Part shown: piece by piece, positions 17,144-64,000 of the stretch
How positions within the stretch are numbered: position 1 is the stretch's first letter
How the letters are laid out: each line of letters begins with the position of its first letter
Assembly (NCBI GenBank): GCA_963794945.1
Contig: CAWCFT010000004.1
Span: 224,001 to 288,000 of the forward strand
DNA: 64,000 nt
Origin: Endomicrobiales bacterium
GTDB lineage: Bacteria; Elusimicrobiota; Endomicrobiia; Endomicrobiales; CAWCFT01
Reading direction: 5' to 3'
Notes under the pieces: model-generated
Told to the model about the DNA's origin: nothing
Seen by the model: only the letters and a program-made list of their open reading frames with translations
Databases searched by the model: none
Translations under genes and position numbers: made by a program

Positions 17144-19088
17144 TTAAATCTCTTTGTTGCCTTTCAGGAATGTCTTTTGGAACAGGGCCGATATATCGTC
17201 AGCTAGCACCTGGTTATTTGTGTCTCTTGCGATCTTGAAAAGGTTGGCCCAGGCGTTTAGGTTGCCGTGTTCCAGTTCCACCGCCTTCCTGAAGTACTCA
17301 GCAGCTTTGCCGTAATCCTTATTAGAGGCGTAATAAATGCCAAGGCTGTTAAACGTTGAAGCGTCCGGGCTTAATTGAAGGCTCTTATTGTAATAGTAGG
17401 CCGCGGCGTCTAGATTACCTTCCTGCATTAGGATATCGGCATAATTGTTAAAGGTTTCTTTGCGCGGGTTAACGACAAGCGCCCAGCGGTAATAGAATTT
17501 TGCCTTTTGACGGTCGCCGAACTTATCGCTGCAGAACGCCAAGCAAATGAAGCATATCCGCTCTCTTGTAGAGAGGATTGATGCGGCTTACTATCTCGAA
17601 ATTTTTGACGGCCTCCCTGTAATCATTCTTGACCATATATTCGATGCCCAGGTTGTAGCAAACACGGATATTCGTAGGAGCCTCTTTTACTCCATCAGTG
17701 TAAAGGCTGTATCCATTTTCGAACACGAGATTCCTTCTAAGCGACAAAGTGCCGTAACAAACTGTTATCAGCGATGCGATAAGGGTACCGGTAGTTACAC
17801 CGGCGAATATTTTGTTCTTAAATCGATCGAAAACCAAAGCGGACAGTGCAACCGCGAACCCAACCATTGGAAGGTACATATACCTGTCATTTACCGTGTT
17901 TACCAACGGGAATATATTTGAAACTGGGATATAACACGCCAGCCACAAACCAATCCCAAATCTTAAAAGCTTGTTCTTGATGAGCAAAAACGCAATAAGC
18001 ACAGCCGCAAAAATAACGACTGCCAGAAGAATATCAGGCCTTAATATAGTGTGTGTTACGTTCAGTTCATAATCAATGGAAAGCCTCGCCGGGACCAGTA
18101 AAGTCTCGCAATAATGCAGGAACGAAAGCATGATGGTTCCAAGATATGCCCCTACAGACGAGACTGGCGACAGGTTATTTTTTATATTTGGAAAAATGCA
18201 GAAATGGAGGAAGTAGTAGAACCTCCTGCCCCAAAAGAAAAATATAAAAAGTGCCGAAGTTAAAGCGCCCGTCGCGATTACAGCCATAGTCCTTTTACGG
18301 AATTTAAGCCCCGAATAAATTACCGTGTAAAAAAAGAAAACGATGACGAGGGATATCGCCGTTTCTTTAGAAAACAGGCTCAATACAAATAAAACGAAAC
18401 CGGCGCAATAATAGAAAATATTTGCTGGAAATTTTTCGCGTACGGCCTTTATAAGCGCTATCAAAGACAACATATACAGCAAAGTCACAAGAAGGTCCGC
18501 ACGGAACGAAGCTATATTTACGGCCTCGGCCTGAATAGGATGGAACGCAAAAACAAGCGCCGCGAATATCGCGGGCGCGAAGCGCCCGTTGAGGGCATCG
18601 CTTCCCACTGCTGAGCCTTCTGGGTAACCCAATAACAGCATCACAAGGAAAAATACTGCCACTGAACTCATCGCGTGAAGGAATATGTTAGTCAGATGAT
18701 ACCCGAAAGGGGACTCTTTCCATAGCTTATAATCGATGATCAGGGAGAGGACTGTCAGCGGCCTTGCGCCGCATTTAAGCGGATAGGGGTTTACCAGGTA
18801 TTTGGGGTTAAGCAGTATCTTTGCGTTCTGTCCTTGTGATATAAAATCATTATAGACGATCAGCTTATAATCATCAAGTACATAGTCGTTCCTTAGAGAC
18901 CTCATGTGCCCGACAGCCGCCGCGGAAAATATCAGGAACGCGCAAATAAGCTGTTTCTTCACAATGCTGGAGTTCTTCAGCCATTCGAAAAAGCCCGCGA
19001 AAGGCACCGTGCGAACTCCGGCGGACACCCCCGCCTGTGCGGAACCTGTGTTAGTGACCGCGTTTGCAATAGGATCAGAGGAATGCAT
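17144..19088 (-). CDS. TMTC-like GT-C membrane glycosyltransferase with C-terminal TPRs, frameshift near 17535
   Basis: YVLDD..LI..N, RPLT.LS..IDY, PFGYHLTNIFLH, FAFHPIQAEAV, SFRADLL, SKETA, DRYMYLP, then TPR helices continuing in 17144..17542. Confidence 0.82.
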
Positions 19089-19112
19089 TATGGCTCCACA
19101 AAACGGAATATT

Positions 19113-20443
19113 CTATTGAGCCGGCGGTAATTCCCGCGTAGCCTGCTGGTTAAGCAGTGCTCCGAAACCGGAATTTTGATCGGACAAGCTGAGCTCTATC
19201 TTTACTTGTTCCAGGATAACCTGCGCGTCCATGTTTTCCCTGTCCATTTCCAGCGCGGAGAACAAGTCTTCCTGGGCTTTTCTATATCTTTCATTCCTTA
19301 CGTCCTTTATAGCCATCTTCACATAGTCTTCTGACCTTTGCTTATTTCCAGGGTCGGATGTGTGTGCTATAGCGTACCCCAAAAAATTCGCCATTTCCGC
19401 ATAACCAGGCTGCAGAGCCCTGAACACTTCCGCGGAACTCTCAAAATCTTCGTTTAAAAAATAATTGATCGCCTTCTTAAATTTCTTGCCGTCTTTCTTA
19501 CCCATTGACTTAATGATATCTTGATTCATATTCTGTATGTTCACGAACAAATTTTTAGCTTTTCCCAGGTTAGGGTTAAGCTTGAGAGCTTTATACATCA
19601 ACAGCAAGGCGTCAAGGGTATCTCCATCTTTGAAATAATTTGCCCCCTTAAAATAGCATTGCTCCGAGAAATCTCTCTTCGCCTCAACCATTTTTTCTTT
19701 TATCAGAGTGATCTTGTTCCTGAAATTCTGCGCTTCGCTGTTCATCGGCTCAAGCCCGAGCGCCAGGTTTATTTTTTTCTCTGCGCCCTTAATATCTCCT
19801 TCCACATAACTTGCTTTTGAATCTTCAATATAACGATCGGCTTTACTTTTTACTCTTTTGGGCGGTTTTTTCAGCGTTTCATTCATTTCATTTAAAGATT
19901 GTTTCTGAAATTGCGGCGCCGTGGGCTGCCCCCCGCAGAAGCCAGTGGCACTATAACTGGTTCTTCGGAAGCGGGCACGGCTGCCTCAGTTTTCACTGCA
20001 TCCTGTTTCGGTTTTGTCGAAACCATCAAAGGAGTTCCAGCGCCGGGAACGGGGGCCATAGCTTTAGCCGGCGTTGCTGTGGAGACTTCAGTTGCTTTCT
20101 TTTTCGTAGAGAACAATCCCCATAAAAATGGTTTCTTTTCTTTTGGCTTTATATCTTTGTTTTGATCCGCGGCATCTTTAGGCGGGTTTGGATGTTTTTT
20201 TCTGAAAAGTTTGTTATCGTGAGACGATTCGGTACTTTCAGTTTTTATGGCTCCCTGCTGAGTTTGTGCAGGCACAGTGGAGACATCTGGAACTACCGTT
20301 GTAAGGGAAGAGCTTGCATTTTTGGCGCCGGTGTTAGAAGAACCTGCAGTATCATCGGCTATCGCACCGGCAGTCAATAAAAAACAAACTGCCGCAAATC
20401 CGAACAACACGCTTAAAATTCTTTTTTTCATTAAACACCTCAT
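19113..20443 (-). CDS. Secreted TPR protein with low-complexity N-terminal linker (ORFs 19892..20443 and 19113..19886 joined)
   Basis: Signal peptide at the start. One extra G in the G6 run at 19929-19934 gives ...AGGQPTAPQFQKQSLNEMNETLKK, reading into the TPR ORF (KALKLNP, ALGLEPMN). Confidence 0.7.
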
Positions 20444-20493
20444 TGCTGAATTATTAATACCAAAAAATACAAGATATTTCGATTGTATACTGC

Positions 20494-21060
20494 CTAATCT
20501 ATATCCCAGAAATACTTCTTGAATAGTTTAAATAGTGTTATGATCGGCTTTAAAAAACCCAGCCGGGAAAGAAAGCTTGGGTTAGCTGTTTCCTGCGAGG
20601 CCACTACTACTACCATGTCGTCGCTATCGCTCGCCTGAACAATTTTCAAGATATCCGGAAGTTTTTCCTTGCCTTTTTTAAGGTCTTCACGTTCCAACAT
20701 TATGTTCCCGATATTTTTACGAAGTTCGTCAATATTTACGGGCTTGACAATAAAATCGTGGGCGCCAATGCGCATGGATTCCACGGCAATCTCGAGTGAA
20801 CTTAACTCTGTTATAATAACTGGCACCGATTCTTTTGATAGACTTACGGCCTGTTTTATAAATTCAATACCGTTCATATCTGGCAGTTTATAATCCGCGA
20901 GAAAAATATCAAAAAACTGTCGTTTTATCATATCAAGAGCTACTGCTCCGCTTACCGAAATGGAAATGGCATAACCATCCTCTTCTAGGGCGCTTTTGAG
21001 CTCCTGTCTCTCTGGTCCGTCTTCCTGAACAATAATGATCTTTGTCTTAGAATATTCCAT
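20494..21060 (-). CDS. Response regulator receiver protein without a DNA-binding domain
   Basis: DIFLADYKLPDMNG, PVIIIT, GAHDFIVKP. Confidence 0.88.
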   Translation of the reverse strand: MEYSKTKIIIVQEDGPERQELKSALEEDGYAISISVSGAVALDMIKRQFFDIFLADYKLPDMNGIEFIKQAVSLSKESVPVIITELSSLEIAVESMRIGAHDFIVKPVNIDELRKNIGNIMLEREDLKKGKEKLPDILKIVQASDSDDMVVVVASQETANPSFLSRLGFLKPIITLFKLFKKYFWDID

Positions 21061-22367
21061 TATTTCAATATTTTGGCCGTTATGATAACTGTGAGCTCGG
21101 TTCTGATCTTCTCTTTATCGGATCTTTTGAAAAGGTTCCCAAGAATTGGAATATCTCCAAGCAGCGGCACCTTGTATTCCGTGTTTGTATCTTCCTCTTT
21201 CACAAGCCCGCCGATTACCGCTGTTTCCCCGTTCTCCATCATGAACGTTGTGTCCGTCTTGCTTGTATATACAGTTGGAGTGCCGTCGCTGGCGATGCTC
21301 ACTATTGAACTCTGTTCGGGCGAAATGTCAAGGATTATTGTGCCGTCCCTGTTTATTTGAGGCCTTACTTTTAGTTTTATTCCCACTTCCTTGAAGGCTA
21401 CGACCGAGCTTACTATTCCCGTACCAATACCGGTGGTGCTCTGAGACGCGTAAGGCACTTCCTCTATTATATTTATGGTCGCTTCTTTGTTATTGATAAC
21501 GACGAGTCTCGGGTTAGTAAGTATCTTGGCGTTTGTATCTGTCTGGAGCGCTTCGATATACGCCTGAACGTTCATGTCACCGCTAAGTAACGCAACCCTT
21601 AAACCGCTTCCCGGCGTGCCGGCGTTGAGAAATCCTGGGGAAAATGACTGTGTGTAACCCACCTGTGGCTGAGCGCTCGTGACCGTTGTAGCTGCACTCC
21701 CCTGCAGACTGCTCGTAAGGCTCAATGGACTTGTGTAGGTCTGATTAGTCCTGTACAAAGTTGTGTCAACACCGATTTGAGTATGGTTGTCTATCTTTAC
21801 GTCTATTATTTTGGCCTCCAACAATACCTGGAGCGGCGGGACATCCAGCGCCTTGATCAACTGGTCTATTTCATCGATATTGTTAGCCGTGTCATTCACT
21901 ATAATTGCATTGCTCTTTTCGGCTGAAGATATCGTACCGTTCTTGGAAAGCTTGGTTTTCAGCACCGGTTCAAGTTCTTTTGCTGTTGGGAAATTGAGGA
22001 AAAATACCTTCGAAACCGTCGTGACCACTGTATCGGTCTTGCTTTTTATCACATATATATTCGTTTCACCCTGCCGCACATAATAGAGATTGTAAGTGTC
22101 CAACAGCGCGTTTATGGCTTCCTCCGGCGTTACTTCTTTTAACGACAGAACTATCCTTCTTTTCGCAAGATCACTGTCGGTTATAAATTTATAACCTGTC
22201 TTCAAGCTCAAGACACTGATGACTGTGCTTAAAGGCGTATCAGGGAAATCTAGTGAAATAAGCCTTTTCTGGCTTTCGTCTAATACCGTCGCGTTCGCGT
22301 ACACAATATTGGCCAAGAACAGCGCACAAAACAACAAACCCAATGACCTTTTCACGTAAACCTCCAT
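21060..22367 (-). CDS. pilQ: Secretin (PilQ/GspD family)
   Basis: Signal peptide, ISLDF N0 domain, IKALDVPP.QVLLEAKI, AKILTNP, FKEVGIKLKVRPQI, KVPLLGDIPILGNLFK, ELTVIIT. Confidence 0.9.
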   Translation of the reverse strand: MEVYVKRSLGLLFCALFLANIVYANATVLDESQKRLISLDFPDTPLSTVISVLSLKTGYKFITDSDLAKRRIVLSLKEVTPEEAINALLDTYNLYYVRQGETNIYVIKSKTDTVVTTVSKVFFLNFPTAKELEPVLKTKLSKNGTISSAEKSNAIIVNDTANNIDEIDQLIKALDVPPLQVLLEAKIIDVKIDNHTQIGVDTTLYRTNQTYTSPLSLTSSLQGSAATTVTSAQPQVGYTQSFSPGFLNAGTPGSGLRVALLSGDMNVQAYIEALQTDTNAKILTNPRLVVINNKEATINIIEEVPYASQSTTGIGTGIVSSVVAFKEVGIKLKVRPQINRDGTIILDISPEQSSIVSIASDGTPTVYTSKTDTTFMMENGETAVIGGLVKEEDTNTEYKVPLLGDIPILGNLFKRSDKEKIRTELTVIITAKILK

Positions 22368-22374
22368 TTTACCA

Positions 22375-23322
22375 CTATTTTTTAAGTTCATAAGTCCGCC
22401 CCTTCCAGGTTACCGAAACACTATCCTTATTTATTTTTTCTATGGTGACATCGTTGCACTCTTCTTTTTCTTTGAAAGCCTTGCCTTCAATAACAACGAC
22501 CGGGGTCGAAGGATCCCAGAAAATACTGTCTATCATAATAGGAGGCATATTCGGCGCCGGTTTTGGCTTGGTAGGCTTATTTACCTCCGGTTTTCTCACT
22601 TCCACAGCTTTCTCCGGTATAAATATCGTTTGCAAATACGCCATAGGATCCCTGTCCGATGTTATCTGCGCCGAACTCGCGTCATTCTGTTTTGTTTCTA
22701 TTTCCCTTCTCACCTCGGAAGCGTCGTTGTAAAGGTCAAAAATATCCTTCCCAGCGAGCGGCGGCATTTGTACCGATCCTGAAGTATCCGGCGATATCGC
22801 GGATATCCTGACAGTAGCCTTGCTCTCCCCCCGGTCTTCGCCGCTCGTGATCTGAAGGGTCTCCACCTTAAAGTCTTTTTCAAGCAGCGTAAAGAATGTG
22901 CATATATCCCTGTAATCAGACGTAAAACTTATATCCAAGTATTTTCTCCCTCCTGCGTCTATGGGCGCGATCTTATCGAGCTTGACCTTTGACTCAACAA
23001 ACATCGCGCTTATCTGGTCAAGATATGTGTTCTGGGATTTCTGCCCGCCGGCCATCAAATTCGCATATTCGGGCAGAAGACCGTCGATATTGTCTCCCGC
23101 CTGCAGCAAAGTGTTCTTAAATACCCCAAAATTCTCGTACTTGGCATGCTTCTCGCCCGCGGTAATGATACCTGTTGATATAACATTCAATTTTTTTGTG
23201 TAATTAGCCACGGTGAAGTAGTAATAGATCGTAAGGCCCAGGGCTATAGCAACGGCGTATCCGGCAAGCTTTAGCCATATGCCTGCCGACGCGTCTATTT
23301 TAAGTGATCTTAAATTATTCAT
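22375..23322 (-). CDS. PilO-like protein with a PilP/GspB-like C-terminal domain
   Basis: N-terminal TM, coiled coil, ISFTSDY..I.TFF..LE PilO-like core; C-terminal IDSIFWD...PVVVIEG...VTIEKI...SV.V..KG; lies between pilN and the secretin. Confidence 0.6.
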   Translation of the reverse strand: MNNLRSLKIDASAGIWLKLAGYAVAIALGLTIYYYFTVANYTKKLNVISTGIITAGEKHAKYENFGVFKNTLLQAGDNIDGLLPEYANLMAGGQKSQNTYLDQISAMFVESKVKLDKIAPIDAGGRKYLDISFTSDYRDICTFFTLLEKDFKVETLQITSGEDRGESKATVRISAISPDTSGSVQMPPLAGKDIFDLYNDASEVRREIETKQNDASSAQITSDRDPMAYLQTIFIPEKAVEVRKPEVNKPTKPKPAPNMPPIMIDSIFWDPSTPVVVIEGKAFKEKEECNDVTIEKINKDSVSVTWKGRTYELKK

Positions 23323-23909
23323 TTTTTCACTTCACTTAATGGAAGTACTATCTTGAATATCTCGACATCATTTTTATTTAAATGCTTCCTTTCATGCGAC
23401 TCCAGCTTCACGCCTTTTCCTATATACTTGTCATTTTCAAGGCTGGCTATAAAATTATCGACGTCCTTGAACCCCTTCTGTTCATTCGGGATGGTTATTA
23501 TCTCAATGAAAAAATTCTTTTTGTTCTGGTCCATTTCGACCACTACCCTGTCCAAACACATGCCTGGCGGCAGCAGGTTTGAAAATTCCTTTAGTCTCGC
23601 GCTCCAGGTGCTGCGCGCGTTCACCAGCGCATAAACTGACCTAAGCTTTCCGCAGTACTCCACCCATACTTTCTCCATGTCTTCCATACCGTACATTCTT
23701 CTTTTTTCTTGTATTGATGCCTCAATGGAAGAAAGATCTTTCCGGGCAACCGACAGTTTCTTTGTCAAGTTATAAAAATTATAACTGATGCCCATAAAAA
23801 CCAGTATCGCGGCAAAGTACAGGATCCTTGAATACCTCGAATATAGCCTTCGGGTTTCAATGAATTTTATTTTGCTCTTAATGAGGTTAAGTTCTAGGAT
23901 TTTTGCCAT
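23319..23909 (-). CDS. pilN: PilN-like pilus assembly protein
   Basis: ELNLI N-terminal motif, one TM, coiled coil, WS..L..FS.LLP; follows pilM. Confidence 0.75.
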   Translation of the reverse strand: MAKILELNLIKSKIKFIETRRLYSRYSRILYFAAILVFMGISYNFYNLTKKLSVARKDLSSIEASIQEKRRMYGMEDMEKVWVEYCGKLRSVYALVNARSTWSARLKEFSNLLPPGMCLDRVVVEMDQNKKNFFIEIITIPNEQKGFKDVDNFIASLENDKYIGKGVKLESHERKHLNKNDVEIFKIVLPLSEVKK

Positions 23910-24898: not shown

Positions 24899-25479
24899 TG
24901 TATTATCCTCTTTACCGGCCTTTCATAATATGAATTCTGTATAACCCTGTACGTAAAACTTGAACCGATTGTTGACCAAACGCTGGCCGCAGCCGAGCTT
25001 ACACAAACTATCTCTGTGATATTCTTTGTCGTAACGAATGTTGAACCAGGGTTTACTCCCACGGTCATAATACCGGAAGAACTTATGCAGTAGTAACCGT
25101 AGGAGCTAAAACCAAAGTCCCGCGGTTTTACAGTACTGACATTTGGGTTTTGGGATGGCACTATTTGAACAGCTATCTGAGCTGTCATGCCGCCGGCACC
25201 AGGATAAGTTATGGTTTGAGGAGCAAATGGGCTCCAAGCCCCCCTGCCATTCCCATGCACATCCCATTCAGGAAATTCTTGTGCGTTCACAAGCCACCCT
25301 TTCATCATATCTATACCACCATCCGCTTGATAGTACGCCCTTGAATTTATCAGCTCTGTCCTTGAAGCCAGCGCTTCCATTCCGAATATGTATATTACCG
25401 CAAGGCCAACGGTTGTAAGAATCATCAAGAATATTAGTACCAGTAACAGTACCGCTCCGCCCGGGCCTTTTTTTTTCAT
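24895..25479 (-). CDS. PilX/GspK-like minor pilin
   Basis: G|AVLLLVL prepilin-like N-terminus without Glu5; RAYYQADGGI. Confidence 0.7.
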   Translation of the reverse strand: MKKKGPGGAVLLLVLIFLMILTTVGLAVIYIFGMEALASRTELINSRAYYQADGGIDMMKGWLVNAQEFPEWDVHGNGRGAWSPFAPQTITYPGAGGMTAQIAVQIVPSQNPNVSTVKPRDFGFSSYGYYCISSSGIMTVGVNPGSTFVTTKNITEIVCVSSAAASVWSTIGSSFTYRVIQNSYYERPVKRIIQ

Positions 25480-54700: not shown

Positions 54701-57700
54701 GGTTCTGCGTATTTACAAGTGACACGAGGAAGCTCTGTGCCGGTAAGCTCACTGAAAAACTTGTCCATGGCTCAAGGGTGTCATCCTGAACGTTGCCGGC
54801 TTTATCGGTCGCACGCGCTTTAACGATATACCATCTTCCCGAATACCACTTATTTGTCATGTCCTGCGAGTCCCAGTTGGTGCCTCCTGTTGCGGTCAGC
54901 CAGTACGGAGATATGTCAGCGCTGGGCAGGACCGTCCATGTTGAACCGTTCCAGACGTAATCGTACAGCGGGACAGGTGAACCGGTCTCATATGATGTGG
55001 ATTCCAGTATTATTACGTACTGGACACCGCTAGCCTGTAAACCGGAATTGTTTACCGCGCAACCATTGTCAGCTGCCGTTCCGCCTATATACTGAATATT
55101 CTGAATATACTGGTTTGCCATCGGCGTGACAACCTGGCCGCTCACAGGCATTATCGCTTCAGTAACGCAAGCCGTAGGCTTTGTGATATCGTAAATGAAT
55201 GTTGAAGAAGATATTATCGCTTGCGGGTTATTAATGTTATCAAAACCCTGGGCCATGACTTGGTAATAATGTCCGTCGTTCAGGTTTGAATTTAGCAGGG
55301 GCTGGAAATACTGCCAGTTGACAGTTACTCCACCCGGCGCCACGGAGCTTATGGTTATCCAATATTGATTAATATTTGTTTGCCAACCAACTGACCCCAG
55401 GCCGTTATCTGTCCAGTACTTGCTGGTCCCGCCGCTCAAGTCCTGTAGCGATATATTCACGCTATTGACGCCAGAGGTTGCATCCCACGATGTTCCTGAG
55501 ATCGTTGAAAGGCTAGTGTAAGCGCCGTTGTTTTGCGGGTTCAGTATCTGAGAGACAGGACCGATATTATCAAAAGTGAAGGTCGCCCCTCTCACTGAAT
55601 ACCAGTTTTCTATATTTCCCGCTGCATCCCAGGCCCTTGAAGTGATGAAATATGATGTGCCGCTCTGAAGTGAATTACTTCCGAGCCCGTTGTAAGTCCA
55701 GTTTGAAAGCCCCGTCGGGGTAAGCGGCGATATGGTGCCCTGGTCGAAAGCTGTCGAACTCCACCATTTGCCTGTTTGGAGGTTCATTATCGCTATCTGC
55801 ATAATAGTCAAACCGCTTGGCCCGGACTGGCCAACAGTTATCGGCAGGTCTAACGACGTACCGGATATGTTCGTCAGTGAAGAGATATACTGGCCGTTTT
55901 GCGGCAGGAAAACATAGCTTTGCGGCGGCGTTGTATCGTAACGGAAAATGGACGTTGAATTTACCGTTGAATAATTGCCCGCGGCATCCTGAACGCGGGA
56001 ATCGACTTCGTATTTATAGCCTGAAGTCCAAACAGTGAACGTCGCCTGCCAGACTGACCAAGTAGAAGATGCGTTCATGGCAGGATAACTGAACCATGCC
56101 GTATTCGCGGTTAATGGGCTGGGGCTGAAATCATCCCAGTTATTTATGCTGCTCTTCCAGTACCGTGAAGCTACGCCGTCCCATACCCTTATTTGAACTT
56201 GTGATAGCGGGTAAGATTCGTTCGCCGTGCCCGAAATAATAGGAAGGCTTACGGCATTGTAGAATTGATTCGGCGGATCTATCAATGATGGAGCCGGCAG
56301 CACGTTGGCTATCGTAGGAACTATCTGGTCGCAGCGCCATATTGACCCGGCGGCGAAGTTCTGTATAAAGCGGCTCTTCAGGGTTGCCGGCCGCATCATA
56401 TGACTTGCACTGTATCTGATACTGCTCGGTGCTGTACCAGGCAGGCAGGCCGGTCGTTTTGGTCCAGAGCTTTAACCCACCGCCCAGGTCTGAAATATTG
56501 TCCACGGGGAGTTCGCTTTGCACTGAAGGGATGCTATCCCACCCGGTCGTGACCCCGTTGTAATACTTGCCTGCCCTTCCGGTACTTCCGTTATCTTGCA
56601 CGCACTTTATGAGCACCTTGACATTTGCTATACCGCTCCTGTTGGCTCCGCCGGTCGGCATATCGTTGGCCGTACCTGAGATAATAGTTATATTCTGATA
56701 GAAACCGCTGTTTACAGGGTACTCAACATAGGACACAGGAGGCGTTATATCGTACAGGAAACTCGCGTTCTGTGTTCTGAGGAGGCCCAGACATCTCAAC
56801 GTTGCCGGCAGTATCTTTGGCCTGCGACCAGAGATAGTATTGATGGGCATCTGCCCAGTTGGGTGTTGAAACGAATGTCCAGTACGCGGTTGCCGAGCGT
56901 GCTCTTGGGCCATGAGACAGGCACAGTATTCTGCCATGAGGTACCGTTCCAGTAAGTGGTACCCTGGGTCACATCCTGTATCAGCACGCCTACGTTCGAT
57001 ATTCCAAAATTATCTACAGCAGTACCCGAAATTGTGGAAAGAGCATTCATTGCCGCGGATATGCCTACTATATTCGATGTCGGGTTTGTGATAGTGTAAA
57101 CAAAGCTTGTTGAGCTGTAGTTTGTTTGATAGTTGCCGATCAATGACGCGTTGTTATAAGCGTTATCATACGCGCACGAGAATATCGTATATGTAGTCTG
57201 GGTCGCAAGCGCGTTCACAAGGCCCGCGTTAGTATAATTCCAGTATGTATTCGCCGGTGTAAGCTGGTAGCTTACAGTTATAAAATTAGGGGTTGATTGG
57301 CTCTGTGTAAATCCGGCGCCGTTCCACCATAGACCTGAAGTGTTGTTCTGTATCGCTATTTGGGTCATTTGTATGCCGGAAGCATTGCCGGAAACCAGAG
57401 GGTCAACTGATGTTCCGGAAATGACGGGGACGGTATTGGTTATCAATCCGTTAGGCGGATAAGCCACCGTGCTTGTCGGGCTAGATTTATCGCAAACAAA
57501 AGTTACCGAGTTCACGCCTACCGTGTACGTATTTTCAACCATGGCCGGATATGATTTATCAGTGGCCTGAGAAAGCATCAGGTATCTATGGCCGTCTGTA
57601 AAGTTAGTGTTGACAAAAGAATACGCCCACGAGGTTGAACCCGTCGCGACCTGCCACATCGACGCTGGAGGAGCGGTGAACGCGCCGGCGCCGTTCCACC

Positions 57701-60700
57701 AGTTATTCGGCCCCGCAACTGAAAGGTCTTCTATGGCCAGCGCTTCCTGAGCGACTCCTGCTCCGGAAGGTTCCGGCGGATTGTCTTCGGCTGTGCCAGT
57801 GATATTGGTAAGGTTGGAATAATACAGGGAGTTAGACGGAACACTTACACGAGAATCCGGGTTTGTGTTGTCATAAATGAACCACGTGTCAAACGCCGGG
57901 ACATCGCTCGCGGCCTCTGAGGAACCCGCAACGTTCCACGCAAGAGATGTAGCGTCGTACCTGTTGCCAGATGTGAACGTCAGCGATGCGACAGCGGTTG
58001 TGTAGGACCATGTTGACTGGTAGAGCGCATCCACCACTACCCATGACGACACATTTGTGTTCTGCCACCCTTGTGAGCCATACCAGCTGCGCAATACTGT
58101 ACCCGAGCCGACATTCTTTTCCTGCAAACGCAAATTAACGTTCTGTACCCCTGAATACGTATCGTATTGGTTGCCTGAAATTCTGGCTATGCTTGAAAGG
58201 TAACTGCCTTGAGCTGGATATGTCACGGTCGAAGTTGGTGTTATATTATCGTAGCTGAACGTTGCTTCGGTATAGGCGGAAGAAGTGAGCGCCACGTTAT
58301 AAGCGAACGCGCGCACGAGATACTGGGTATTGTTTACCCACGTAGGCGAATTCGGGCTGTTGGACTGGCTGTGTGTCCAGAGCGTTGTTCCCTGAGCCGT
58401 GAAGAACTGCGGCGAATTCGAAGTGAACCCTGAATTGCCATCCCACCACAAACCGCCGGGCGGGTTTTGCTCGTATGCGACCTTGACAGAAGCTATACCA
58501 TAAGGATCCGACGCCGTTCCAGATATCGTGGGCAGAGAATTTTCCCAGGCTCTATTCGGAAGCGTAATACCGGCCATAGGAGCGGTATTTTCATAAGTGA
58601 AATACAGCCTGTTGGCGGGTATTATGGTAGCCGGATTCTCCTGGTTGCCCGCACGGTCTGTGGCTATGGCCTGAACCATATACTGATAACCGTTCTGAAG
58701 CGGCGGGCACTGCCACGACCACGTGTATGTCGGCCCTGAGCCACTCACTGTCGCAGTGGAATAGACTGGGCTCGCCCCCTTGTAGTTGAATGTCGAAGAT
58801 GCCGGGTTCCACCAGCACTCTCCATGGTTGGTTTCCAAAATAGCGACAAAAACATTCTGATTGGCCACACCCGCCGGCCAGTCATATGCGGTGCCCGTTA
58901 TAACAGGGATAAAGTTTATAAGGTTCGATCCGCCGTAGTTAGGGTACGTAACCGCGACCGTAGGCGCTTCAACATCAAACATTACGGACGTTGAAGACAA
59001 TATAACCTGAACGTTAGGATTGTTTGCAATTGTAGCGTCAACAGCATTATCTTTTGCGCGGGCGTAAATTGTATACTGCTTTGGCTCGGCCCACGGAACC
59101 GAAGTAGCGTCATAACTCCATGTGGGAGGATTTCCGGCAGCCGTTGTTGCCTGTATCCAATATTGTGTACCCTGGCTCACCCATCCGCCTGCTCCGTTAT
59201 ACCATGTAGTACCCTGGCCTATATCTTGTATCGCTATCTGAACAGACCCTATCCCTGAAAGAGTGTCATTAGCCGTGCCTGATATTAGAGGGACAATGCT
59301 TGCAAATTGAACATTAGGGAGTGTCACTGTTGCAGTCGGGAAATCTATATCGTAAACAAAAGTAACAGTGTTCTTGCCTACACTGTACACCGTCTCAACA
59401 TTCTGCGGAAATGCATTGTCCGTAGACTTGCTCACTATCGTGTATGAATGGCCGTCCTGCATCTTCGATGCATAACCTGAATACTGCCAGTTTGTCGGCG
59501 TTCCCTGCGTAACCAGCCATTTGTTGTTTTCTCCTATCGACGCGCTAAAATCCCACGCCGAACCGGTCCACCCGTAATACTCCCCAAGGGTGTTGTCATA
59601 TATGTAAATACCGGTAATGTTCACTCCTGACGTATCGTCAAAAGCTGTTCCTGAAATATTGGGAAGGTTCCTGTAGTAAACCGAATTAAGCGGCAAAGTT
59701 ATAGTGCTTGTGGGAGCAACGTTATCATATACAAACGTTGTAATAGTGCCTGTTGACGCGTTGCCGGCGCCATCTATTTCCCACGGGGCTATCTGATAAG
59801 TTGCTCCGTTTATAAACGCGTTTGTGATGGTATCAGGGCCTTTTGGATATGTCCAAGTTGTTGTGCCGTTAACAGGCCTGAAATACACTTGGCCGGGCGA
59901 GCCCCATGCAGAACCGGTCCAATAGGAGTTCTGTGACAAAACCCAAATAAGCGATACCATTGTTTGCGTAATACCGCTGGTACCGTCAAATGCCGTACCT
60001 GAAATTGTTCTGCAGCGACGAGTAGTAAGTTATACCAGGCGCCGGAAGAGTCACGACACCTGTGGGATTGCTGATATCGTATGTGAAAGCAGAGCTGGAA
60101 ACCGGCGTTTGGAAGTTAAGTGCGTTGTCCTCGGCCATCGCGCACACCTTGAAAGTTTGGCCGTCAAAATTGTTCCACGGAGGCAGGTTCCAGGTTTGCT
60201 GCCAATTAGCCAGTGTACCCGCGTTAGTCAGCGTGTAAGACGCGGCTGAAAGCGAGAATGACTGAGCGCCCCAGCTCCACCAATTCCCTCCGCCCGCCGG
60301 GTTTTGCTGTATGGCTACTCCGACATTAAGCAAACCGCTCCTGTTGACATTTGCCCCGTCGCTCGCAGTTCCTGAAAGCACGCTTAAGCTGCCTGATTTA
60401 TAGTATGTTCGGCTGGGAAGCTGTATCAATGATGTTGGAGCCGTTCGGTCCCACGTAAACGTTGATATTACCAGCATACTGAAATTGCCGGCGTTATCCA
60501 ATGCAGCCGCTGTAACGGTATACTGTGTGTTGTCTGCCCAAGTCGGCGTATTGTCACCGGTGTTACCGGGGTACAACCATGTGTAGGGATCAGCTGAACC
60601 CTGTAACTGCGTAGCTCTCCAAGTAGTGGTTGACACTCCAAACGATGTGCCGTTCCACCAATTACCGCCAACCTGCTGTATATTTACTACAACATTCTTG

Positions 60701-63700
60701 ACACCGGATTTTGCCCAGGGTAATGACGGGTAATCCTGCACCTGGCCGGATAGCGTAGGCAGAGTATTGTTCGGGCCGTAGTAACCCTGGTTCTGCGGCT
60801 GGACTACAGACACCGTAGGCGGTATAGTATCGAAGAGGATCGTATAGCCGCCCTGCGGGTAAGAATTGTACTGATCGTTCGGCGTTGGATACGCGTTATC
60901 GTACGCCCGCGAACGTATCTTATACCTTCTGCCTGTTTGCCAGGCCGGTACGCTGCTGTATGTCCACGAGCTCTGGTAAACATTGGTCGGATTGAAATAC
61001 TCAGCGGAATTCTGCCATGATGAGCCGTTCCAGTAGGTCGTAGGATATGTCAGGTCCTGGATAGAAACCATCACCTGTCCTACTCCGCTGGCAAGCCTTC
61101 CGGCCGCGGGCGCAATGTCCATCTGTGTGCCGGATATCGTTGCCAGTGAAATGTCATTGGACCCATCGAGCGGGCAAGTCACTACGCTCGTGGGGTTAGA
61201 CACGTCATATATGAACAAGTTCTGGTTCTGGCCTGCGGTATAAATCGATTCCACGTTAGCAGGCTGCGCATTATCCGTAGCTTGCGACTGCACCGTGTAT
61301 GATGTACCATCTACCAAGTAACTAGACCCAATTGAATACTGCCAGTTTGTTGCCGTTCCAAAAGTTGGCAGGGGAGTTTGGGACGCATTCCCAAAACTGC
61401 CTAAACCGTCCCAGTATGCGTTTTTACTCCAGCTGTAAATACTAACCTGAGTTTTGTTAACGCCGCTCGCTGATCCGCCGGTACCAAGGGGATCTATGGA
61501 AGTTCCTGATATGGTCGGAAGCGAACTATAATATCTCCCATTTACTGGCAGCGGAGATATGTAAGATGCCGGAGCTGTGTTATCAAATACAAACCCCATT
61601 ACGTTCCCGGTGGAATCGTTGCCGGCAAAATCCAGCGTCCATGGGGTTATATAATATGTAGTACCACTAACCCAGCTGGGAACATTCGTATAATTCCAGT
61701 TAGCTGTACCGGAAACAACCAGCCAATCAATAGCGCCTGTAATATCCCAACCTGACGAGCCGTTCCAGTAGCTAGTTCCCGACTTGATATTTATGCGCGC
61801 GGTTTGTACACCGGACGTCGCATCGAAAGTTGTTCCGGCAATTGCCGCCATCGTTGAATAATATCCGAATGAAGCAGGCGTGGTAACGGTAGCAGTTGGT
61901 TTCGTGATATCGTAAGAGAACACGAAAGATGAAACAACTACCTGCTGGTTGCCGGCACGGTCCGTGGCTGACGAGTAAATGACGTAGGTATTATCGGTCT
62001 GCCAAGAAGGCAGGTTCCAAGATTGTGTCCAGCCGCTCTGCGAAGAATTTCCGCCATTTACTACGGTCCACGAAGCGTTTGATAGCGAGAATGACTGCGC
62101 GCCCCAGCTCCACCAACTCCCGCCCTGAAGCTGTAAGGACAAGAATGTTTGATTGGGCTTTGAATTTATTGGGTTAGGGTCAGTTGTCGTTCCTGAAATG
62201 GTCGCAATGTTAACGTTGGTGTATCTGGTTGAAGGATATGAAATAACAGATACTGGTGGCGTTGAGTCATACGTAATAGTATATGCCAGAGGAGATGAAT
62301 TGTTACCGGCGTTATCCATAGCCTGGGCCGTAATGGAGTACTGCGTTTGGTCCTGCCACACAGGAATAGCTTGTCCGCCAAGCGAGCCCGGGTATTGCCA
62401 GAAGCCGGCTGAATACTGGGTTGGCACCCATGTAGACTGTACCACCCAACTTGAACCGCTCCAATACTTCGACCCGTTGTATATCTGCAACTGTATGTTA
62501 TTAATGTCGGCACATATAAGCGGCAAAGCCGGCAGGTCTACCGCCGTGCCTGTGATCGCGACCAGCGCTGAAGAGGCAGGGCCGTAGAAACCGTTGTTTT
62601 GCGGCGCGCCTATCTGTACCAGCGGCGGATTTGTGTCATACGTTATTACGTAACCGCCCTGCGGGTACTGCGTGTCCTGGTCATTGCCGCCAGGGACAGC
62701 CTGGTCAATAGCTTTTGAACGGATCAGGTATTGTTTGCCTGTTTGCCACGGGAGCAGGGATGGGTTAGAGAACGTGAAGGTCCACGTGCTTGAGTTGTAC
62801 ACCGTGCTGTTCCAGAATGTCGAGTTGGTCCAAGATCTTGATGTATCGTTCCAGTAGGTCGTGCCGCTCGCTATATCGTTTATCGATATTTTCACTGACC
62901 CTACGCCCGACATAACCGCGTTCGCGAACGGAGCGACATCGTTGGCCGTGCCGGAGATAGTCAGAAGCGCGCTGTAATTTCCGGCATTGACCGGATAGTT
63001 TACCGTTGATGTGGGTGCAGTTACGTCATAAGCGAACGCAATAGAGGTTACACCGACACTGAATGTTTGCCCTGTATTAATGGCATTATCTATACCGCGG
63101 CTTAAGACCATGAAATTGTATCCGCTCTCGGTTTGAGTAAATAGAGTTGGTGGATTGCCATAGGTCCAAGTTGAAATAATCGCACCAGCGTAAGTTACAG
63201 GATTCCCGCCCGTGTAATCAAACCAGTCCGTTCCGGTGCCTGACGCCCAGGAACCGCCTTTCCAGTAATTGCCGGTATTTAGGTTCTGTATCTGCACCTG
63301 AACGTCCTTTACACCCGTGAAATCATCGGTTGCAGTACCTGTTATCTGCGGTAAAGACCTATAAATCACACCTCCTTGCGGAACGTTAAGCCTTGTTGCG
63401 GAGGCTGCGTATCGATCTGGAAAGTTGTTGTTGAAAAATTGGTTTCGACGTTCTGGGCTGTGCTTACCGCTGAAGAGTTCATGGAGTAGGTTTGCCCTGA
63501 AACCCAGTTGGACGCACTGCCGAAATTGTAATACCACCACGTGCCGCCAGCTGTCAGGTTCTGCGTGGTTATCCAGGTAGAAACGTTCAGTTGCCAGCCG
63601 GTTCCGTTCCAATAGAAAGTTGAGCCTGCGTTTTGGTAAGCGATGCGTATGTTGGTATATTGAACGCTGTTAGCAATATCATCGTTTGCCGTTCCGGAGA

Positions 63701-64000
63701 TCGCAATAAGGGCGTTGGTTGAACCGTTATACTGCCCGTTAGCAGCCGGCATAACAACCCCTGACCACGGAGGTATAATGTCGACCGTGCAGCTTCTTGT
63801 TGAATACGGTGTCTCGTAGTTTGGCGTAGGTATTACGTTGTCGTTTGCCACTACCCTAATGCGGTATGTTTGCCCCGACACCCAGCTCGGCGCCTGAATA
63901 TACCAGCTGACAACCGGGCTTGCGGGATAATCTGCTCCATAAACAACCGCGGTACCCATAGTAGCAGATTCGGTTTGTGTAGGCGTGCCGTATGCGTTGT
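33778..64000 (-). CDS. Giant repetitive surface/secreted protein (>10,000 aa, start outside the window), fragmented by about 20 or more frameshifts
   Basis: Consecutive minus-strand ORFs abut or overlap. Where junctions were read (about 36770, 38275, 38925, 43378, 60005), repeat units continue across them in a shifted frame. Composition is uniformly T/S/V/G/N-rich with beta-strand patterning, and there is one terminal domain at 33778. Confidence 0.85.
33781..34095 (-). other. C-terminal T9SS-CTD-like / FlgD-Ig-like domain of the giant protein
   Basis: SNFPNP...IVY.L..DA.VTI.LYDLLG.LV...WDG.N..G..VA.GGY....V.......RKIGIIH-stop. Confidence 0.8.
34115..34480 (-). other. Fibronectin type III-like domain of the giant protein
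   Basis: P.AP....VVW.P....SGV..YEIQ...YYYRIRAQNNAG.WGPWS. Confidence 0.75.
35050..39880 (-). repeat. Giant-protein repeat family C: about 8 units of roughly 160-190 aa with a D-x-[DN]-G-[DN]-G-type loop
   Basis: Recurring QG..n..vl...l....W..l.v.r.G...D.Dv..VK.w.D.ng.G.....D..is.G.f...yfv.ydi...A..G.tlG (manual count). Confidence 0.75.
42665..54370 (-). repeat. Giant-protein repeat family B: about 32 units of roughly 110-125 aa
   Basis: Recurring kLqvLvPGEtavPG..tGKtG.p..qtAG.pF.vtV..vD.ywN.....ttDpy.....L..Gt..F.vtlvTa (manual count of PGE/PNE/PNQ motifs). Confidence 0.85.
54750..64000 (-). repeat. Giant-protein repeat family A: at least 24 Trp-rich bacterial Ig-like units of roughly 125 aa
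   Basis: Recurring yD.t.P.s.v..P....y..l..ISGTa.D..sgv..v.i.iq....yWnG..W....W.y....g..Y.i.s.a.DnAgN (manual count of ISGT-like motifs). Confidence 0.85.

What the first reader, a model, noticed from the sequence alone, without database searches (positions are those of the whole stretch)
17144..64000. Candidate undescribed envelope machine: retractile type IV pilus + orphan MotAB stator + giant CTD-bearing surface protein + TMTC-like glycosyltransferase in one locus
Seen: a pilBTC-pilin-minor pilin-pilMNO-secretin operon with trailing receiver, TPR and GT-C genes. Its promoter is back-to-back with that of a motAB pair (-35 boxes at 31899-31904 and 31943-31948). motAB ends at a shared terminator with a >30 kb gene whose C-terminus is T9SS-CTD-like. 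No flagellar gene is in the window. Known: MotAB, ExbBD, TolQR and the T9SS/gliding motor GldLM/PorLM are all 5:2 ion-driven motors. Giant genes near T4P/T2SS genes have been reported in some uncultivated, putatively predatory or episymbiotic lineages. Inference: these parts may form one attachment, surface-motility or predation apparatus, with the stator energising export or movement of the giant adhesin instead of a flagellum.
Basis: partly seen in the sequence, partly recalled or inferred. Interest (0 to 1): 0.9.

Follow-up and report, generated by a model that had tools for sequence, protein, structure and literature searches.

The report
Flagellar-type motor beside giant surface protein
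In an uncultured, flagellum-less Elusimicrobiota bacterium, a flagellar-type MotA/MotB stator sits beside a gene for a surface protein of about 20,000 residues; in relatives both belong to one conserved gene set with a fused FliF-FliG rotor and a PorV-like outer-membrane barrel, while the neighbouring pilus operon is an ordinary bystander.

Summary
The observation mostly holds. The window has a complete retractile type IV pilus operon, a divergent motAB pair, a bidirectional terminator and a giant gene. That gene is about 61 kb, split by frameshifts that affect the whole assembly. The glycosyltransferase call could not be verified.

FliF, FlhA, rod, FliM/N and flagellin were not found in this 86%-complete genome. 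It does carry three membrane-anchored FliF-FliG fusion genes.

In 151 Elusimicrobiota genomes, FliG_C and this MotA type co-occur in 56, with 3 discordant; only 4 have FlhA. In relatives the gene order is giant CTD protein, c-di-GMP riboswitch, PorV-like barrel-TPR, FliF/FliG-TPR, coiled-coil proteins, FlbD, MotA, MotB. Here that set is split: the giant gene and motAB are in the window, the rest lies on another contig.

A complex prediction docks the giant's C-terminal domain in the PorV-like barrel (0.93, best control 0.01). A like complex is solved, so this may be memory.

Pilus genes lie near this MotA in only 1 of 46 relatives' loci, so they are probably not part of it.

This scan has noted the same machine in at least 8 other genomes. 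In print I found only one passing remark on orphan motAB/fliG.

The parts
17144..19088 (-). Hydrophobic (probably polytopic membrane) protein with C-terminal TPRs, read in two overlapping frames (17523-19088 and 17144-17542). Probably not part of the motor module.
   Evidence: Only TPR families matched. Only TPR chains matched in the PDB. There was no meaningful similarity to a PMT_2-TPR paralogue elsewhere in the genome. Membrane topology is my reading of the sequence.
19113..21060 (-). TPR protein (19113-19886), a protein of unknown family with a hydrophobic N-terminus (19892-20443), and a stand-alone receiver domain (20494-21060), all at the tail of the pilus operon.
   Evidence: Pfam: Response_reg 72.8 bits; weak TPR_2.
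21060..31667 (-). Type IV pilus operon: secretin 21060-22391; unknown 22375-23322; PilN-like 23319-23909; PilM 23894-24898; minor pilins 24895-26551; pilins 26618-27058 and 27121-27522; PilC 27590-28813; PilT 28806-29888; PilB 30222-31667, whose C-terminal end is in another frame at 30076-30219.
   Evidence: Pfam: T2SSE 428 and 147 bits, T2SSF 203, Secretin 164, PilM_2 154, N_methyl. Weak PilN. PilB frame change.
31875..31971 (.). Back-to-back sigma-70-like promoters: minus strand 31904-31875 for pilB, plus strand 31943-31971 for motA.
   Evidence: 12 of 12 and 11 of 12 hexamer matches. Ten sites were found in the region against 3.9 expected from shuffles.
32073..32864 (+). MotA, a flagellar-type stator A subunit (what I call class 1).
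   Evidence: MotA_ExbB 91 bits. Best NCBIfam hits are MotA, MotP and PomA, all below their equivalog cut-offs. Best PDB hits are flagellar MotA at 1.3e-47 and PomA at 1.5e-41. An Arg and a Glu eight residues later sit in the cytoplasmic loop. It belongs to a clade of 45.
32887..33568 (+). MotB with plug, transmembrane Asp and OmpA-like domain. It is split by a frame change near 33170-33198.
   Evidence: MotB_plug 44.7 bits and OmpA 54.2 bits. Residues 27-121 and 113-226 of the L005 orthologue align in two frames.
33699..33740 (.). Inverted repeat with 19-nt arms and a 4-nt loop, flanked by A and T runs. Likely a bidirectional terminator shared by motB and the giant gene.
33781..64000 (-). The 3' half of one giant gene. 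The whole gene is G000:C4:257781-319239, about 61 kb and about 20,000 aa. It has an N-terminal hydrophobic anchor, mostly unannotated Ig-like-looking sequence, and a T9SS-like C-terminal domain in the last ~120 aa (33781-34140).
   Evidence: Frame chain. It is colinear with an unbroken 17,343-aa frame of a same-order genome: 27 HSPs covering 15,813 of 17,343 aa. Orthologous frames reach 19,358 aa. For the CTD. Predicted docking to the PorV-like barrel.

Best explanation
The window holds three neighbours, and only two of them belong together.

(1) The pilus operon is an ordinary retractile type IV pilus system.

(2) MotA/MotB is a working-looking flagellar-type stator. Its partner is not a flagellum but a membrane protein that fuses the ring-building RBM3/collar part of FliF to the middle and C-terminal (torque-receiving) domains of FliG, followed by TPRs. 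This genome has three such genes, all outside the window.

(3) The giant gene encodes a surface protein of about 20,000 aa. Its C-terminal domain is of the type IX secretion kind and most likely sits in a PorV-like 14-strand outer-membrane barrel with a periplasmic TPR arm.

In relatives all of these parts are adjacent: giant gene | c-di-GMP riboswitch, (small CTD-only protein), PorV-like barrel-TPR, FliF/FliG-TPR, long coiled-coil protein(s), FlbD, MotA, MotB. In this genome the set is split. The giant gene and motAB are in the window. The riboswitches, CTD-only gene, barrel, rotor and coiled coils are at G000:C3:44.5-56 kb. FlbD is stranded next to ppdK at C4:412.8 kb.

Inferred mechanism, not shown: ion flow through MotA5B2 turns or loads a ring of the FliF/FliG fusion in the inner membrane. 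The ring's periplasmic collar and the barrel's TPR arm carry that work to the outer-membrane barrel that holds the giant protein. The protein is then moved, tensioned or exported, much as GldLM motors drive the SprB adhesin in gliding Bacteroidota. c-di-GMP would set the level of expression.
For: **No flagellum found.** PF01514 (FliF), PF00771 (FlhA), PF00460 (rod), PF01052 (FliM/N) and PF00669 (flagellin) each gave 0 hits in G000, while each rang in 4 of 14 control genomes.

**Rotor.** FliG_C matches at three G000 loci. Each gene encodes an N-terminal hydrophobic stretch and an extracytoplasmic-looking part, a membrane helix, a Gly-rich linker, then FliG-like sequence. An orthologue carries YscJ_FliF_C 26.9 bits, FliG_M, FliG_C and TPR. 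It matches T. maritima FliG-MC at 8.5e-42. Its model matches FliG-MC at 1.6e-11 and the FliF RBM3/collar at 4e-5 to 1e-4.

**Stator.** It is of flagellar type, with plug, OmpA-like domain and the Arg/Glu pair.

**Co-occurrence in one sample of 151 genomes.** FliG_C was found in 57, this MotA type in 58, both in 56, FliG_C alone in 1 and MotA alone in 2. FlhA was found in 4.

**Linkage.**
- 94 of 137 FliG_C hits have a MotA hit within 12 kb, 78 of them downstream on the same strand.
- 15 of 46 class-1 MotA loci carry the FliG-like gene, 13 the barrel, 10 a giant-C-terminus homologue and 34 FlbD.
- 39 of 137 FliG_C hits have a giant-C-terminus hit 1.4-8 kb upstream on the same strand.
- 18 of 28 such hits on frames of 5,000 aa or more are followed by FliG_C.
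- In two same-order genomes the orthologue of this window's giant is followed by the barrel, the rotor and coiled coils.

**Barrel.** The model has pLDDT 81.9, with 14 strands plus TPRs. The best PDB folds are chain F of the T9SS translocon complexes 8gl6 (3.5e-13) and 6h3i (2.7e-11), ahead of FadL/TodX.

**Docking.** Barrel plus the window giant's last 120 aa gave ipSAE 0.93 in all three runs, best control 0.01, with at least 97% contact agreement and partner pLDDT of at least 87. This mark was reached by 116 of 157 solved complexes and 2 of 215 mismatched pairs.

**Riboswitch.** Tandem c-di-GMP-I aptamers precede the C3 module. The same aptamer lies between the giant gene and the barrel gene in 7 of 8 relatives' loci.
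Against: - Everything here is computed. No expression or imaging data exist, and no RNA run holds this stretch.
- In this genome the parts are dispersed. The window's giant gene has no barrel or rotor gene next to it, and its MotB is frameshifted.
- Only 15 of 46 class-1 MotA loci are linked to the rotor gene, whereas 20 of 46 hold a ppdK gene within the ~10 kb flanks, which looks like housekeeping context.
- 10 of 28 giant-type C-termini are not followed by FliG_C.
- The docking pass may reflect memory of the solved PorV-CTD complex 8gl6.
- In the FliG-like torque helix, the Arg position of T. maritima FliG is Gly, and the EHPQ motif reads ETPE.
- The CTD and PorV family models score below their cut-offs.
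- How torque would cross the periplasm is unknown.
- The genome is 85.9% complete with 5.9% contamination.
Confidence: 0.6

Rival explanations
1. One reading: the type IV pilus, MotAB, the giant CTD protein and the membrane-TPR 'glycosyltransferase' form one attachment, motility or predation apparatus encoded by this locus.
For: The genes are adjacent, with back-to-back promoters and a shared terminator. The closest relative (L005, MotA 82% identical) keeps the pilB | motAB | giant order. Giant genes next to T2SS-like loci are reported for Omnitrophota (West-Roberts preprint, passages read).
Against: Pilus ATPase, platform, secretin or PilM homologues lie within about 10 kb of the orthologous MotA in only 1 of 46 loci, and pilins in 0 of 46. 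The genome has a second pilus locus. No GT-C family hit was found for 17144-19088. In L005 an extra lipoprotein-like gene separates motB from the giant gene.
Confidence: 0.08
2. The rotor-stator module is real, but the giant protein is only a passenger. The PorV-like barrel passively anchors CTD proteins, and the motor powers some other envelope task, such as outer-membrane or cell-wall upkeep in the manner of Tol-Pal, or general secretion.
For: CTD-like tails occur on many proteins of 1,200-2,500 aa and in genomes without the motor: 17 of 44 genomes in family f2. A distant SprA-like protein is present in 141 of 151 genomes, including the motor-less families. Class-1 motAB often sits by ppdK, away from any giant gene.
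Against: The fixed spacing of giant C-terminus, barrel and rotor, mostly 2.7-4.2 kb. The barrel gene lies inside the riboswitch-led operon with the rotor. In this lineage motAB moved precisely to the giant gene's 3' end.
Confidence: 0.22
3. The motAB and fliG-like genes are decaying leftovers of a lost flagellum and have no present function.
For: MotB here is frameshifted. Four genomes of the phylum still have FlhA, so flagella existed in the group.
Against: The frameshifts also hit AspRS and PilB, so they look like assembly errors. Orthologues are intact in 45 other genomes at 47-82% identity. The Arg/Glu pair and the plug are kept. Co-occurrence is 56 genomes with both against 3 discordant. 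The paralogues are multiplied, not lost.
Confidence: 0.03
4. A normal flagellum is encoded in the unassembled ~14% of the genome, and this MotAB drives it.
For: Completeness is only 85.9%.
Against: Five flagellar families gave no hit here. 53 of the 57 FliG_C-positive genomes lack FlhA, most of them listed at 90-100% complete. The window's MotA clade holds none of the MotAs taken from the four FlhA-bearing genomes.
Confidence: 0.02

Closest known systems
Bacterial flagellar motor core (FliF MS-ring, FliG, MotA5B2/PomA5B2 stator, FlbD/SwrD)
   Same: MotA, MotB, FlbD, the FliG middle and C-terminal domains and the FliF RBM3/collar are all recognisable by sequence and fold. The MotA Arg/Glu pair and an acidic pair on the FliG torque helix are kept.
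   Different: No export gate, rod, hook, filament or FliM/FliN. FliF and FliG are one polypeptide without the FliG N-domain. The EHPQ motif reads ETPE (its role in FliM binding is recalled). TPRs and long coiled-coil proteins are added. The set is linked to an outer-membrane barrel and giant proteins.
Type IX secretion / Bacteroidota gliding machinery (GldLM/PorLM motor, SprA translocon, PorV shuttle, SprB adhesin with CTD)
   Same: A huge adhesin-like protein with a CTD of the same fold class. A PorV-like 14-strand barrel is the best structural match, with predicted CTD docking. An ion-driven 5:2-type motor is encoded alongside. A distant SprA-like protein is present.
   Different: The motor is MotAB plus a FliF/FliG rotor, not GldLM; GldM was not found and GldL, GldK and GldN were not tested. 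The barrel carries a TPR arm. The family models for the CTD, PorV and TIGR04189 (SprA) score below their cut-offs, while Pfam SprA_N passes its own. The phylum lies outside Bacteroidota.
Very large and giant genes of PVC-group bacteria (West-Roberts et al. 2023, bioRxiv 10.1101/2023.11.21.568195; passages read)
   Same: Proteins of 10,000 aa or more are reported in Elusimicrobiota. Assembly errors fragment such genes. Conserved secretion-type loci lie beside them.
   Different: That preprint describes T2SS-like loci in Omnitrophota. The words MotA, FliG and flagell* do not occur in its main text.
Remark in Uzun et al. 2022 (bioRxiv 10.1101/2022.07.08.499144; passages read)
   Same: [quoted passage not shown]
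   Different: The passages I read make no mention of the FliF-FliG fusion, the PorV-like barrel, the giant-gene linkage or the riboswitch. That preprint suggests twitching or Gld-type gliding.

Membership tests
Flagellar stator MotA/MotB (PomAB-like, 'FIT' type of PMC12505986) | MotA channel domain plus a cytoplasmic torque interface with the conserved Arg and Glu (R90/E98 in E. coli numbering, as given in PMC12505986 and in the PMC7564593 abstract) | tested here: met
   PF01618 91 bits. Full-length alignment to solved flagellar MotA at 1.3e-47. The Arg and a Glu eight residues later are visible in the aligned loop.
Flagellar stator MotA/MotB (PomAB-like, 'FIT' type of PMC12505986) | MotB plug, transmembrane Asp and OmpA-like peptidoglycan-binding domain | tested here: met
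   MotB_plug 44.7 bits and OmpA 54.2 bits. The Asp lies in the transmembrane segment. The gene is read in two frames.
Flagellar stator MotA/MotB (PomAB-like, 'FIT' type of PMC12505986) | Reaches the curated equivalog score of a named flagellar stator | tested here: not met
   Best hit NF005997 scored 231.5 bits against a cut-off of 340. MotP scored 225.7 against 394, and PomA 192.9 against 341.
Flagellar stator MotA/MotB (PomAB-like, 'FIT' type of PMC12505986) | Works in a flagellum, meaning the genome encodes FliF, FlhA, rod, FliM/N and flagellin | tested here: not met
   0 hits for each of five families in G000, with the controls ringing. The genome is 85.9% complete.
FliG (flagellar rotor/switch protein) | FliG middle and C-terminal domains | tested here: met
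   FliG_C 81-97 bits and FliG_M 41-48 bits. 1lkv matched at 8.5e-42. The fold matched at 1.6e-11.
FliG (flagellar rotor/switch protein) | FliG N-terminal domain that binds the FliF C-terminus, and a free-standing protein of about 335 aa | tested here: not met
   TIGR00207 is matched only from about position 100 to 329 of 338, and scores 86-99 bits against a cut-off of 226.7. The open frames are mostly about 465-740 aa, a few up to 859 aa, with the FliF part and a membrane helix in front.
FliG (flagellar rotor/switch protein) | EHPQR motif for FliM binding (the role is recalled) | tested here: not met
   The aligned motif reads ETPE against EHPQ in T. maritima FliG. No FliM/N was found in the genome.
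Type IX secretion system | Cargo C-terminal sorting domain (type A CTD) | tested here: inconclusive
   The window giant scored 19.8 bits on TIGR04183 (cut-off 23) and 25.5 on FlgD_ig (cut-off 27). The small CTD-only paralogue scored 42.7 on FlgD_ig and 20.8 on Por_Secre_tail (cut-off 27). A conserved PNP...DLLG...GGY...KIG..H pattern is seen across 19 sequences.
Type IX secretion system | PorV outer-membrane shuttle | tested here: inconclusive
   The fold is closest to chain F of 8gl6 and 6h3i; that this chain is PorV is recalled. Pfam PorV scored only 15.9 bits against a cut-off of 27.
Type IX secretion system | GldM/PorM motor component | tested here: not met
   PF12081 gave 0 hits in G000, and its control rang only weakly. 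GldL, GldK and GldN were not tested.
Type IX secretion system | SprA/Sov translocon | tested here: inconclusive
   A 1,767-aa frame at G000:C5:39157-44457 matched SprA_N at 38.7 bits (cut-off 27). It matched TIGR04189 at 58.6 and 57.4 bits (cut-off 200), but hmmscan of the whole protein listed nothing. Homologues occur in 141 of 151 genomes, with or without the motor.
Type IX secretion system | PorU sortase (peptidase C25) | tested here: inconclusive
   0 hits, but the control genomes did not ring either.
Type IVa pilus | Extension ATPase, retraction ATPase, platform protein, prepilins, PilM and secretin in one locus | tested here: met
   PilN is only weak, at E 0.066. PilO and PilP were not recognised.
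GT-C glycosyltransferase with TPRs (TMTC/PMT-like) | GT-C family match in the membrane domain | tested here: not met
   No GT-C, PMT or ArnT hit at E up to 1. No solved relative beyond TPRs. No likeness to the genome's PMT_2-TPR protein. The fold was not predicted.
Very large / giant genes of the PVC group | A single gene of 10,000 codons or more | tested here: met
   The frame chain spans about 61 kb and is colinear with an unbroken 17,343-aa frame. Orthologous frames reach 19,358 aa.

The most novel reading that the evidence does not exclude
Free-living Elusimicrobiota have rebuilt the torque-generating core of the flagellar motor into a new trans-envelope machine. That core is a FliF-FliG fusion ring, FlbD and MotA5B2. 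It is coupled through a PorV-like barrel with a TPR arm to surface proteins of 10,000-20,000 residues. Under c-di-GMP control, it drives the movement, tensioning or export of these giant adhesins. This would be a flagellum-derived counterpart of Bacteroidota gliding and type IX secretion, and a third way to use a rotary ion motor at the cell surface.
Probability: 0.4. Interest if true: 0.92.

Novelty: categorically new. Interest (0 to 1): 0.8.

Why it matters
If the parts work together, this would be the first case of flagellar rotor and stator proteins used without a flagellum. It bears on three open questions.

- **What flagellar-type stators can drive.** A recent survey treats stators with a plug and a torque interface as flagellar (PMC12505986, passages read).
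- **How giant bacterial proteins are handled.** It is not known how proteins of 10,000-20,000 residues are held and used at the cell surface.
- **How non-flagellated Elusimicrobiota might move or attach.** One preprint calls the role of their MotAB unclear.

It also gives a testable pairing: the giant protein's C-terminal domain with a specific outer-membrane barrel.

For this scan, the window adds a split version of a module already noted in other genomes. Here motAB has been moved next to the giant gene. That move is itself a hint of a functional link.

Tried and rejected
- **Expression.** The look-up of sequencing runs on 30000-36000 listed no RNA holder. It listed only two DNA runs from one study, each with a 0.07 share of words.
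- **Outgroups for the MotA tree.** The search for homologous proteins with MotA returned 1,077 hits. The 120 listed were all 70% identical or more, and the named ones are Elusimicrobia/Endomicrobiales. The tree therefore has no outside flagellar references. It is rooted only loosely by a very long ExbB/TolQ branch from G000.
- **Domains of the giant protein.** Pfam on 20 window pieces gave only FlgD_ig and one weak Glyco_hydro2_C5 hit. Pfam on the intact 17,343-aa orthologue gave a few weak Big_* hits. The protein atlas gave scores of 0.82 or less to Ig-like clusters, which are leads only.
- **Glycosyltransferase.** No support.
- **Homopolymers at frame breaks.** Only 2 of 12 junctions examined had a run of 5 or more. 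The errors are therefore not simple long-homopolymer slips, and their cause stays open.
- **Terminator scan.** It found 1 site against 2.8 expected and missed the real inverted repeat.
- **SprA-like protein as a motor-specific partner.** Rejected, because it is near-universal in the phylum.
- **Riboswitch in the window.** None found.
- **Literature.** Four searches found no paper describing the module. Supplements were not read.

Full report
**What is in the window**

The minus strand from 17144 to 31667 carries a complete type IV pilus operon. It encodes PilB (T2SSE 428 bits), PilT, PilC, two pilins, N-methylated minor pilins, PilM and a secretin. A receiver domain, TPR proteins and a hydrophobic membrane-type protein with TPRs follow.

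Diverging from pilB, MotA (32073-32864) and MotB (32887-33568) lie on the plus strand. Near-consensus promoters stand back to back, with TTGACA at 31904 on the minus strand and at 31943 on the plus strand. A 19-nt inverted repeat at 33699-33740, flanked by A and T runs, lies between motB and the end of a very long minus-strand gene.

The 'TMTC-like glycosyltransferase' could not be verified. Only TPRs match any family or any solved structure.

**The assembly and the giant gene**

Under the bacterial code the long gene is a chain of about 20 overlapping frames inside the window. The chain continues beyond the window to G000:C4:319239. There an N-terminal hydrophobic segment starts it, giving about 61 kb in all.

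MotB, PilB and the housekeeping AspRS are frameshifted as well. The closest relative reads 2,585 aa of the same gene without a break.

A same-order genome has the orthologue as one open frame of 17,343 aa. The window's pieces align to it in order, as 27 HSPs covering 15,813 of 17,343 residues. The frame changes at points where the query positions simply carry on.

Across the phylum, frames that end in this C-terminus reach 19,358 aa. I therefore read it as one gene, most likely broken by assembly errors.

Its content is almost unannotated. There are a few weak bacterial Ig-like hits and a FlgD_ig / T9SS-CTD-like tail just under the family cut-offs.

**Whose genome, and is there a flagellum?**

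Relatives of MotA come from Endomicrobiales and Elusimicrobia MAGs. The genome has 2.9 Mb in 19 contigs and is 85.9% complete with 5.9% contamination.

Searches of the whole genome found no FliF, FlhA, rod protein, FliM/N or flagellin. Each of these searches rang in 4 of 14 control genomes.

FliG_C, however, matched at three places outside the window.

**The missing partner**

Each of those three genes encodes the same layout:
- an N-terminal hydrophobic stretch and an extracytoplasmic-looking part (my reading of the printed sequences);
- a membrane helix;
- a glycine-rich linker;
- FliG middle and C-terminal domains.

Intact orthologues add a FliF C-terminal (YscJ_FliF_C) match and C-terminal TPRs. 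They match T. maritima FliG-MC at 8.5e-42. A model of one orthologue matches solved FliG-MC at 1.6e-11 and the FliF RBM3/collar ring at 4e-5 to 1e-4.

The protein is therefore a natural FliF-FliG fusion. It lacks the FliG N-domain. Where T. maritima FliG has EHPQ it reads ETPE, and the torque helix keeps an acidic pair but has Gly at the Arg position.

The window's MotA keeps the Arg/Glu pair that faces FliG in flagellar motors. Its best matches are solved flagellar MotA and PomA.

**Phylum-wide counts**

All counts below come from one sample of 151 Elusimicrobiota genomes.
- FliG_C was found in 57 genomes and 45 of 63 genera.
- FlhA was found in 4 genomes.
- This MotA type was found in 58 genomes.
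- By genome handle, 56 have both, 1 has FliG_C only, 2 have MotA only and 92 have neither. The two largest families, 44 and 45 genomes, hold only that single FliG_C-only genome and no MotA.
- 94 of 137 FliG_C hits have a MotA hit within 12 kb, and 78 of these lie downstream on the same strand. Three rows were left out of this count.

The MotA hits fall into two groups, a split I made by identity. Window-type orthologues are 47-75% identical (46 hits). More distant paralogues are 39% identical or less (86 hits). Of the paralogues, 79 of 86 lie within 12 kb of a FliG_C hit. Of the window type, 15 of 46 do.

In a tree of 67 MotA rows, the window type is one clade of 45 (support 94/83). The MotAs of three FlhA-bearing genomes form a separate clade (100/100), and the fourth sits alone near the base.

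**The module**

I compared the window with the DNA around 46 window-type MotA genes. These comprise the closest relative L005 plus 45 genomes, with up to 10 kb on each side. The numbers of loci carrying each kind of gene were:

| Gene near MotA | Loci of 46 |
|---|---|
| FlbD | 34 |
| ppdK | 20 |
| FliF/FliG-like | 15 |
| 540-640-aa barrel protein | 13 |
| Coiled-coil proteins | 13 |
| Homologue of the giant's C-terminus | 10 |
| Pilus genes | 1 |

The recurrent order on one strand is: large CTD protein, barrel protein, FliF/FliG-TPR, coiled-coil protein(s), FlbD, MotA, MotB.

Two further counts tie the giant proteins to the rotor gene. These are lower bounds, because one search scored at most 12 candidates per genome and left 28 matches unlisted.
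- 39 of 137 FliG_C hits have a giant-C-terminus hit 1.4-8 kb upstream on the same strand, mostly at 2.7-4.2 kb.
- 18 of 28 such C-termini on frames of 5,000 aa or more are followed by FliG_C within 8 kb.

The barrel protein of this genome (G000:C3:45473-47101) models as 14 strands plus TPRs, with pLDDT 81.9. Its best solved folds are chain F of the type IX translocon complexes 8gl6 and 6h3i. By recall that chain is PorV. FadL/TodX barrels rank lower.

A complex prediction of the barrel with the last 120 residues of the window's giant protein scored 0.93 in all three runs. The best of three controls scored 0.01. Contact agreement was at least 97% and partner pLDDT at least 87. This mark was reached by 116 of 157 solved complexes and 2 of 215 mismatched pairs. 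Because a PorV-CTD complex has been solved, the pass shows likeness and not proof of binding.

Tandem c-di-GMP-I riboswitches precede the module on contig C3. The same aptamer lies between the giant gene and the barrel gene in 7 of 8 relatives' loci.

**How this genome differs**

In two same-order genomes the orthologue of this window's giant is followed by the barrel, the FliF/FliG-TPR gene and coiled-coil genes. In one of the two a small CTD-only gene was also recognised. In many relatives flbD-motA-motB sits next to ppdK.

In G000 the parts are dispersed:
- Contig C3 has the riboswitches, the CTD-only gene, the barrel, the rotor and the coiled coils, but no giant gene.
- FlbD sits alone before ppdK at C4:412.8 kb.
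- motAB lies tail to tail with the giant gene, in the window.

An independent MAG, L005, shares this order, with one extra lipoprotein-like gene between motB and the giant gene. The rearrangement is therefore real for the lineage. It placed the stator next to the giant gene.

The genome also has two more sets of large CTD protein, barrel and rotor (C16 and C4:8-26 kb). A second MotA with two MotB genes lies near another CTD protein and barrel on C12.

**Mechanism and rivals**

Shown by computation:
- the identities of the parts;
- their co-occurrence;
- their linkage;
- the predicted CTD-barrel fit.

Inferred:
- the fusion forms an inner-membrane ring that MotA5B2 turns;
- the ring's periplasmic collar and the barrel's TPR arm couple this to the outer-membrane-held giant protein;
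- the output is movement, tension or export of that protein, under c-di-GMP control.

The nearest working analogy is Bacteroidota gliding and type IX secretion. GldM, however, was not found. The distant SprA-like protein is near-universal in the phylum and so is not motor-specific.

A vestigial flagellum and a hidden flagellum are both unlikely, for the reasons given under the rival explanations.

**Novelty**

Two papers come closest. One preprint remarks that most free-living Elusimicrobiota have motAB, flbD and fliG without flagellar structural genes, and calls the role of MotAB unclear (passages read). The giant-gene preprint does not contain the words MotA, FliG or flagell* (passages read). 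A 2025 survey treats plug-and-torque-interface stators as flagellar (passages read).

Four literature searches found no description of the module.

Within this scan the module has already been noted in at least 8 other genomes. Those notes agree with what I derived independently here. One of them gave me the riboswitch lead.

**Limits**
- There are no expression data.
- The MotA tree has no outside references.
- The identity of chain F of 8gl6 and 6h3i, and the roles of EHPQR and of R90/E98, are partly recalled.
- Window positions 1-15000 were not annotated in detail.
- No supplementary files were read.

Noticed in passing
window 13455-15249 (-): The aspartyl-tRNA synthetase gene is read in two frames (13732-15249 and 13455-13793). 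A broken housekeeping gene is the best sign that the frame breaks here are assembly errors.
   Followed up: partly
G000:C3:44564-44911 (L075:4565-4653 and 4816-4912, +): Tandem c-di-GMP-I riboswitch aptamers (83.9 and 72.1 bits) lie ahead of the CTD-only gene, the barrel and the rotor operon. The same aptamer sits at the same place in 7 of 8 relatives' loci.
   Followed up: yes
G000:C3:45020-45457 (+); L069:2720-3136; other genomes: Small stand-alone proteins of about 133-190 aa consist of little more than the CTD-like domain behind a hydrophobic N-terminus (FlgD_ig 42.7 bits). In the two loci where I mapped both genes (L069 and G000 C3), the small gene directly precedes the PorV-like barrel gene. 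It could be a plug or place-holder for the barrel.
   Followed up: partly
G000:C5:39157-44457 (-): A 1,767-aa protein has partial SprA likeness (SprA_N 38.7 bits; TIGR04189 58.6 and 57.4 bits, under the cut-off). Homologues occur in 141 of 151 Elusimicrobiota genomes, including families without the motor. Contig C5 has a lower G+C (0.431) than the rest.
   Followed up: partly
G000:C4:412799-412972 (-): FlbD (77.2 bits) sits alone directly upstream of ppdK. In relatives flbD-motA-motB-ppdK are contiguous, so motAB was cut out of this site.
   Followed up: yes
G000:C12:70984-73156 and 75881-83705 (L078): A second MotA with two MotB-like genes lies near a GAF histidine kinase, a 1,203-aa Kelch/FN3 protein with a CTD-like tail, and another PorV-like barrel. 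No FliG-like gene is nearby.
   Followed up: partly
L009 / L066 (contig of 49,778 bases): The public record title calls this contig 'Ignavibacteria bacterium', yet the genome table places a contig of the same length in the same class as G000 (Elusimicrobiota). The label probably conflicts with the placement.
   Followed up: no
G123:C153:560-880 (L011): The only FliG_C hit in the large family f2 is a full-size, 348-aa FliG-type frame (145 bits) on a 2.4-kb contig. It could be contamination or a real flagellar remnant.
   Followed up: no
L025:11359-17133 (+): In one flagellated relative a 1,925-aa bacterial alpha-2-macroglobulin gene directly follows motB.
   Followed up: no
G000:C5:44641-45819 (L074:14642-15820, -): A DDE transposase gene (DUF4372 and DDE_Tnp_1) lies next to the SprA-like gene. 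Mobile elements may explain why this genome's motor modules are scattered.
   Followed up: no
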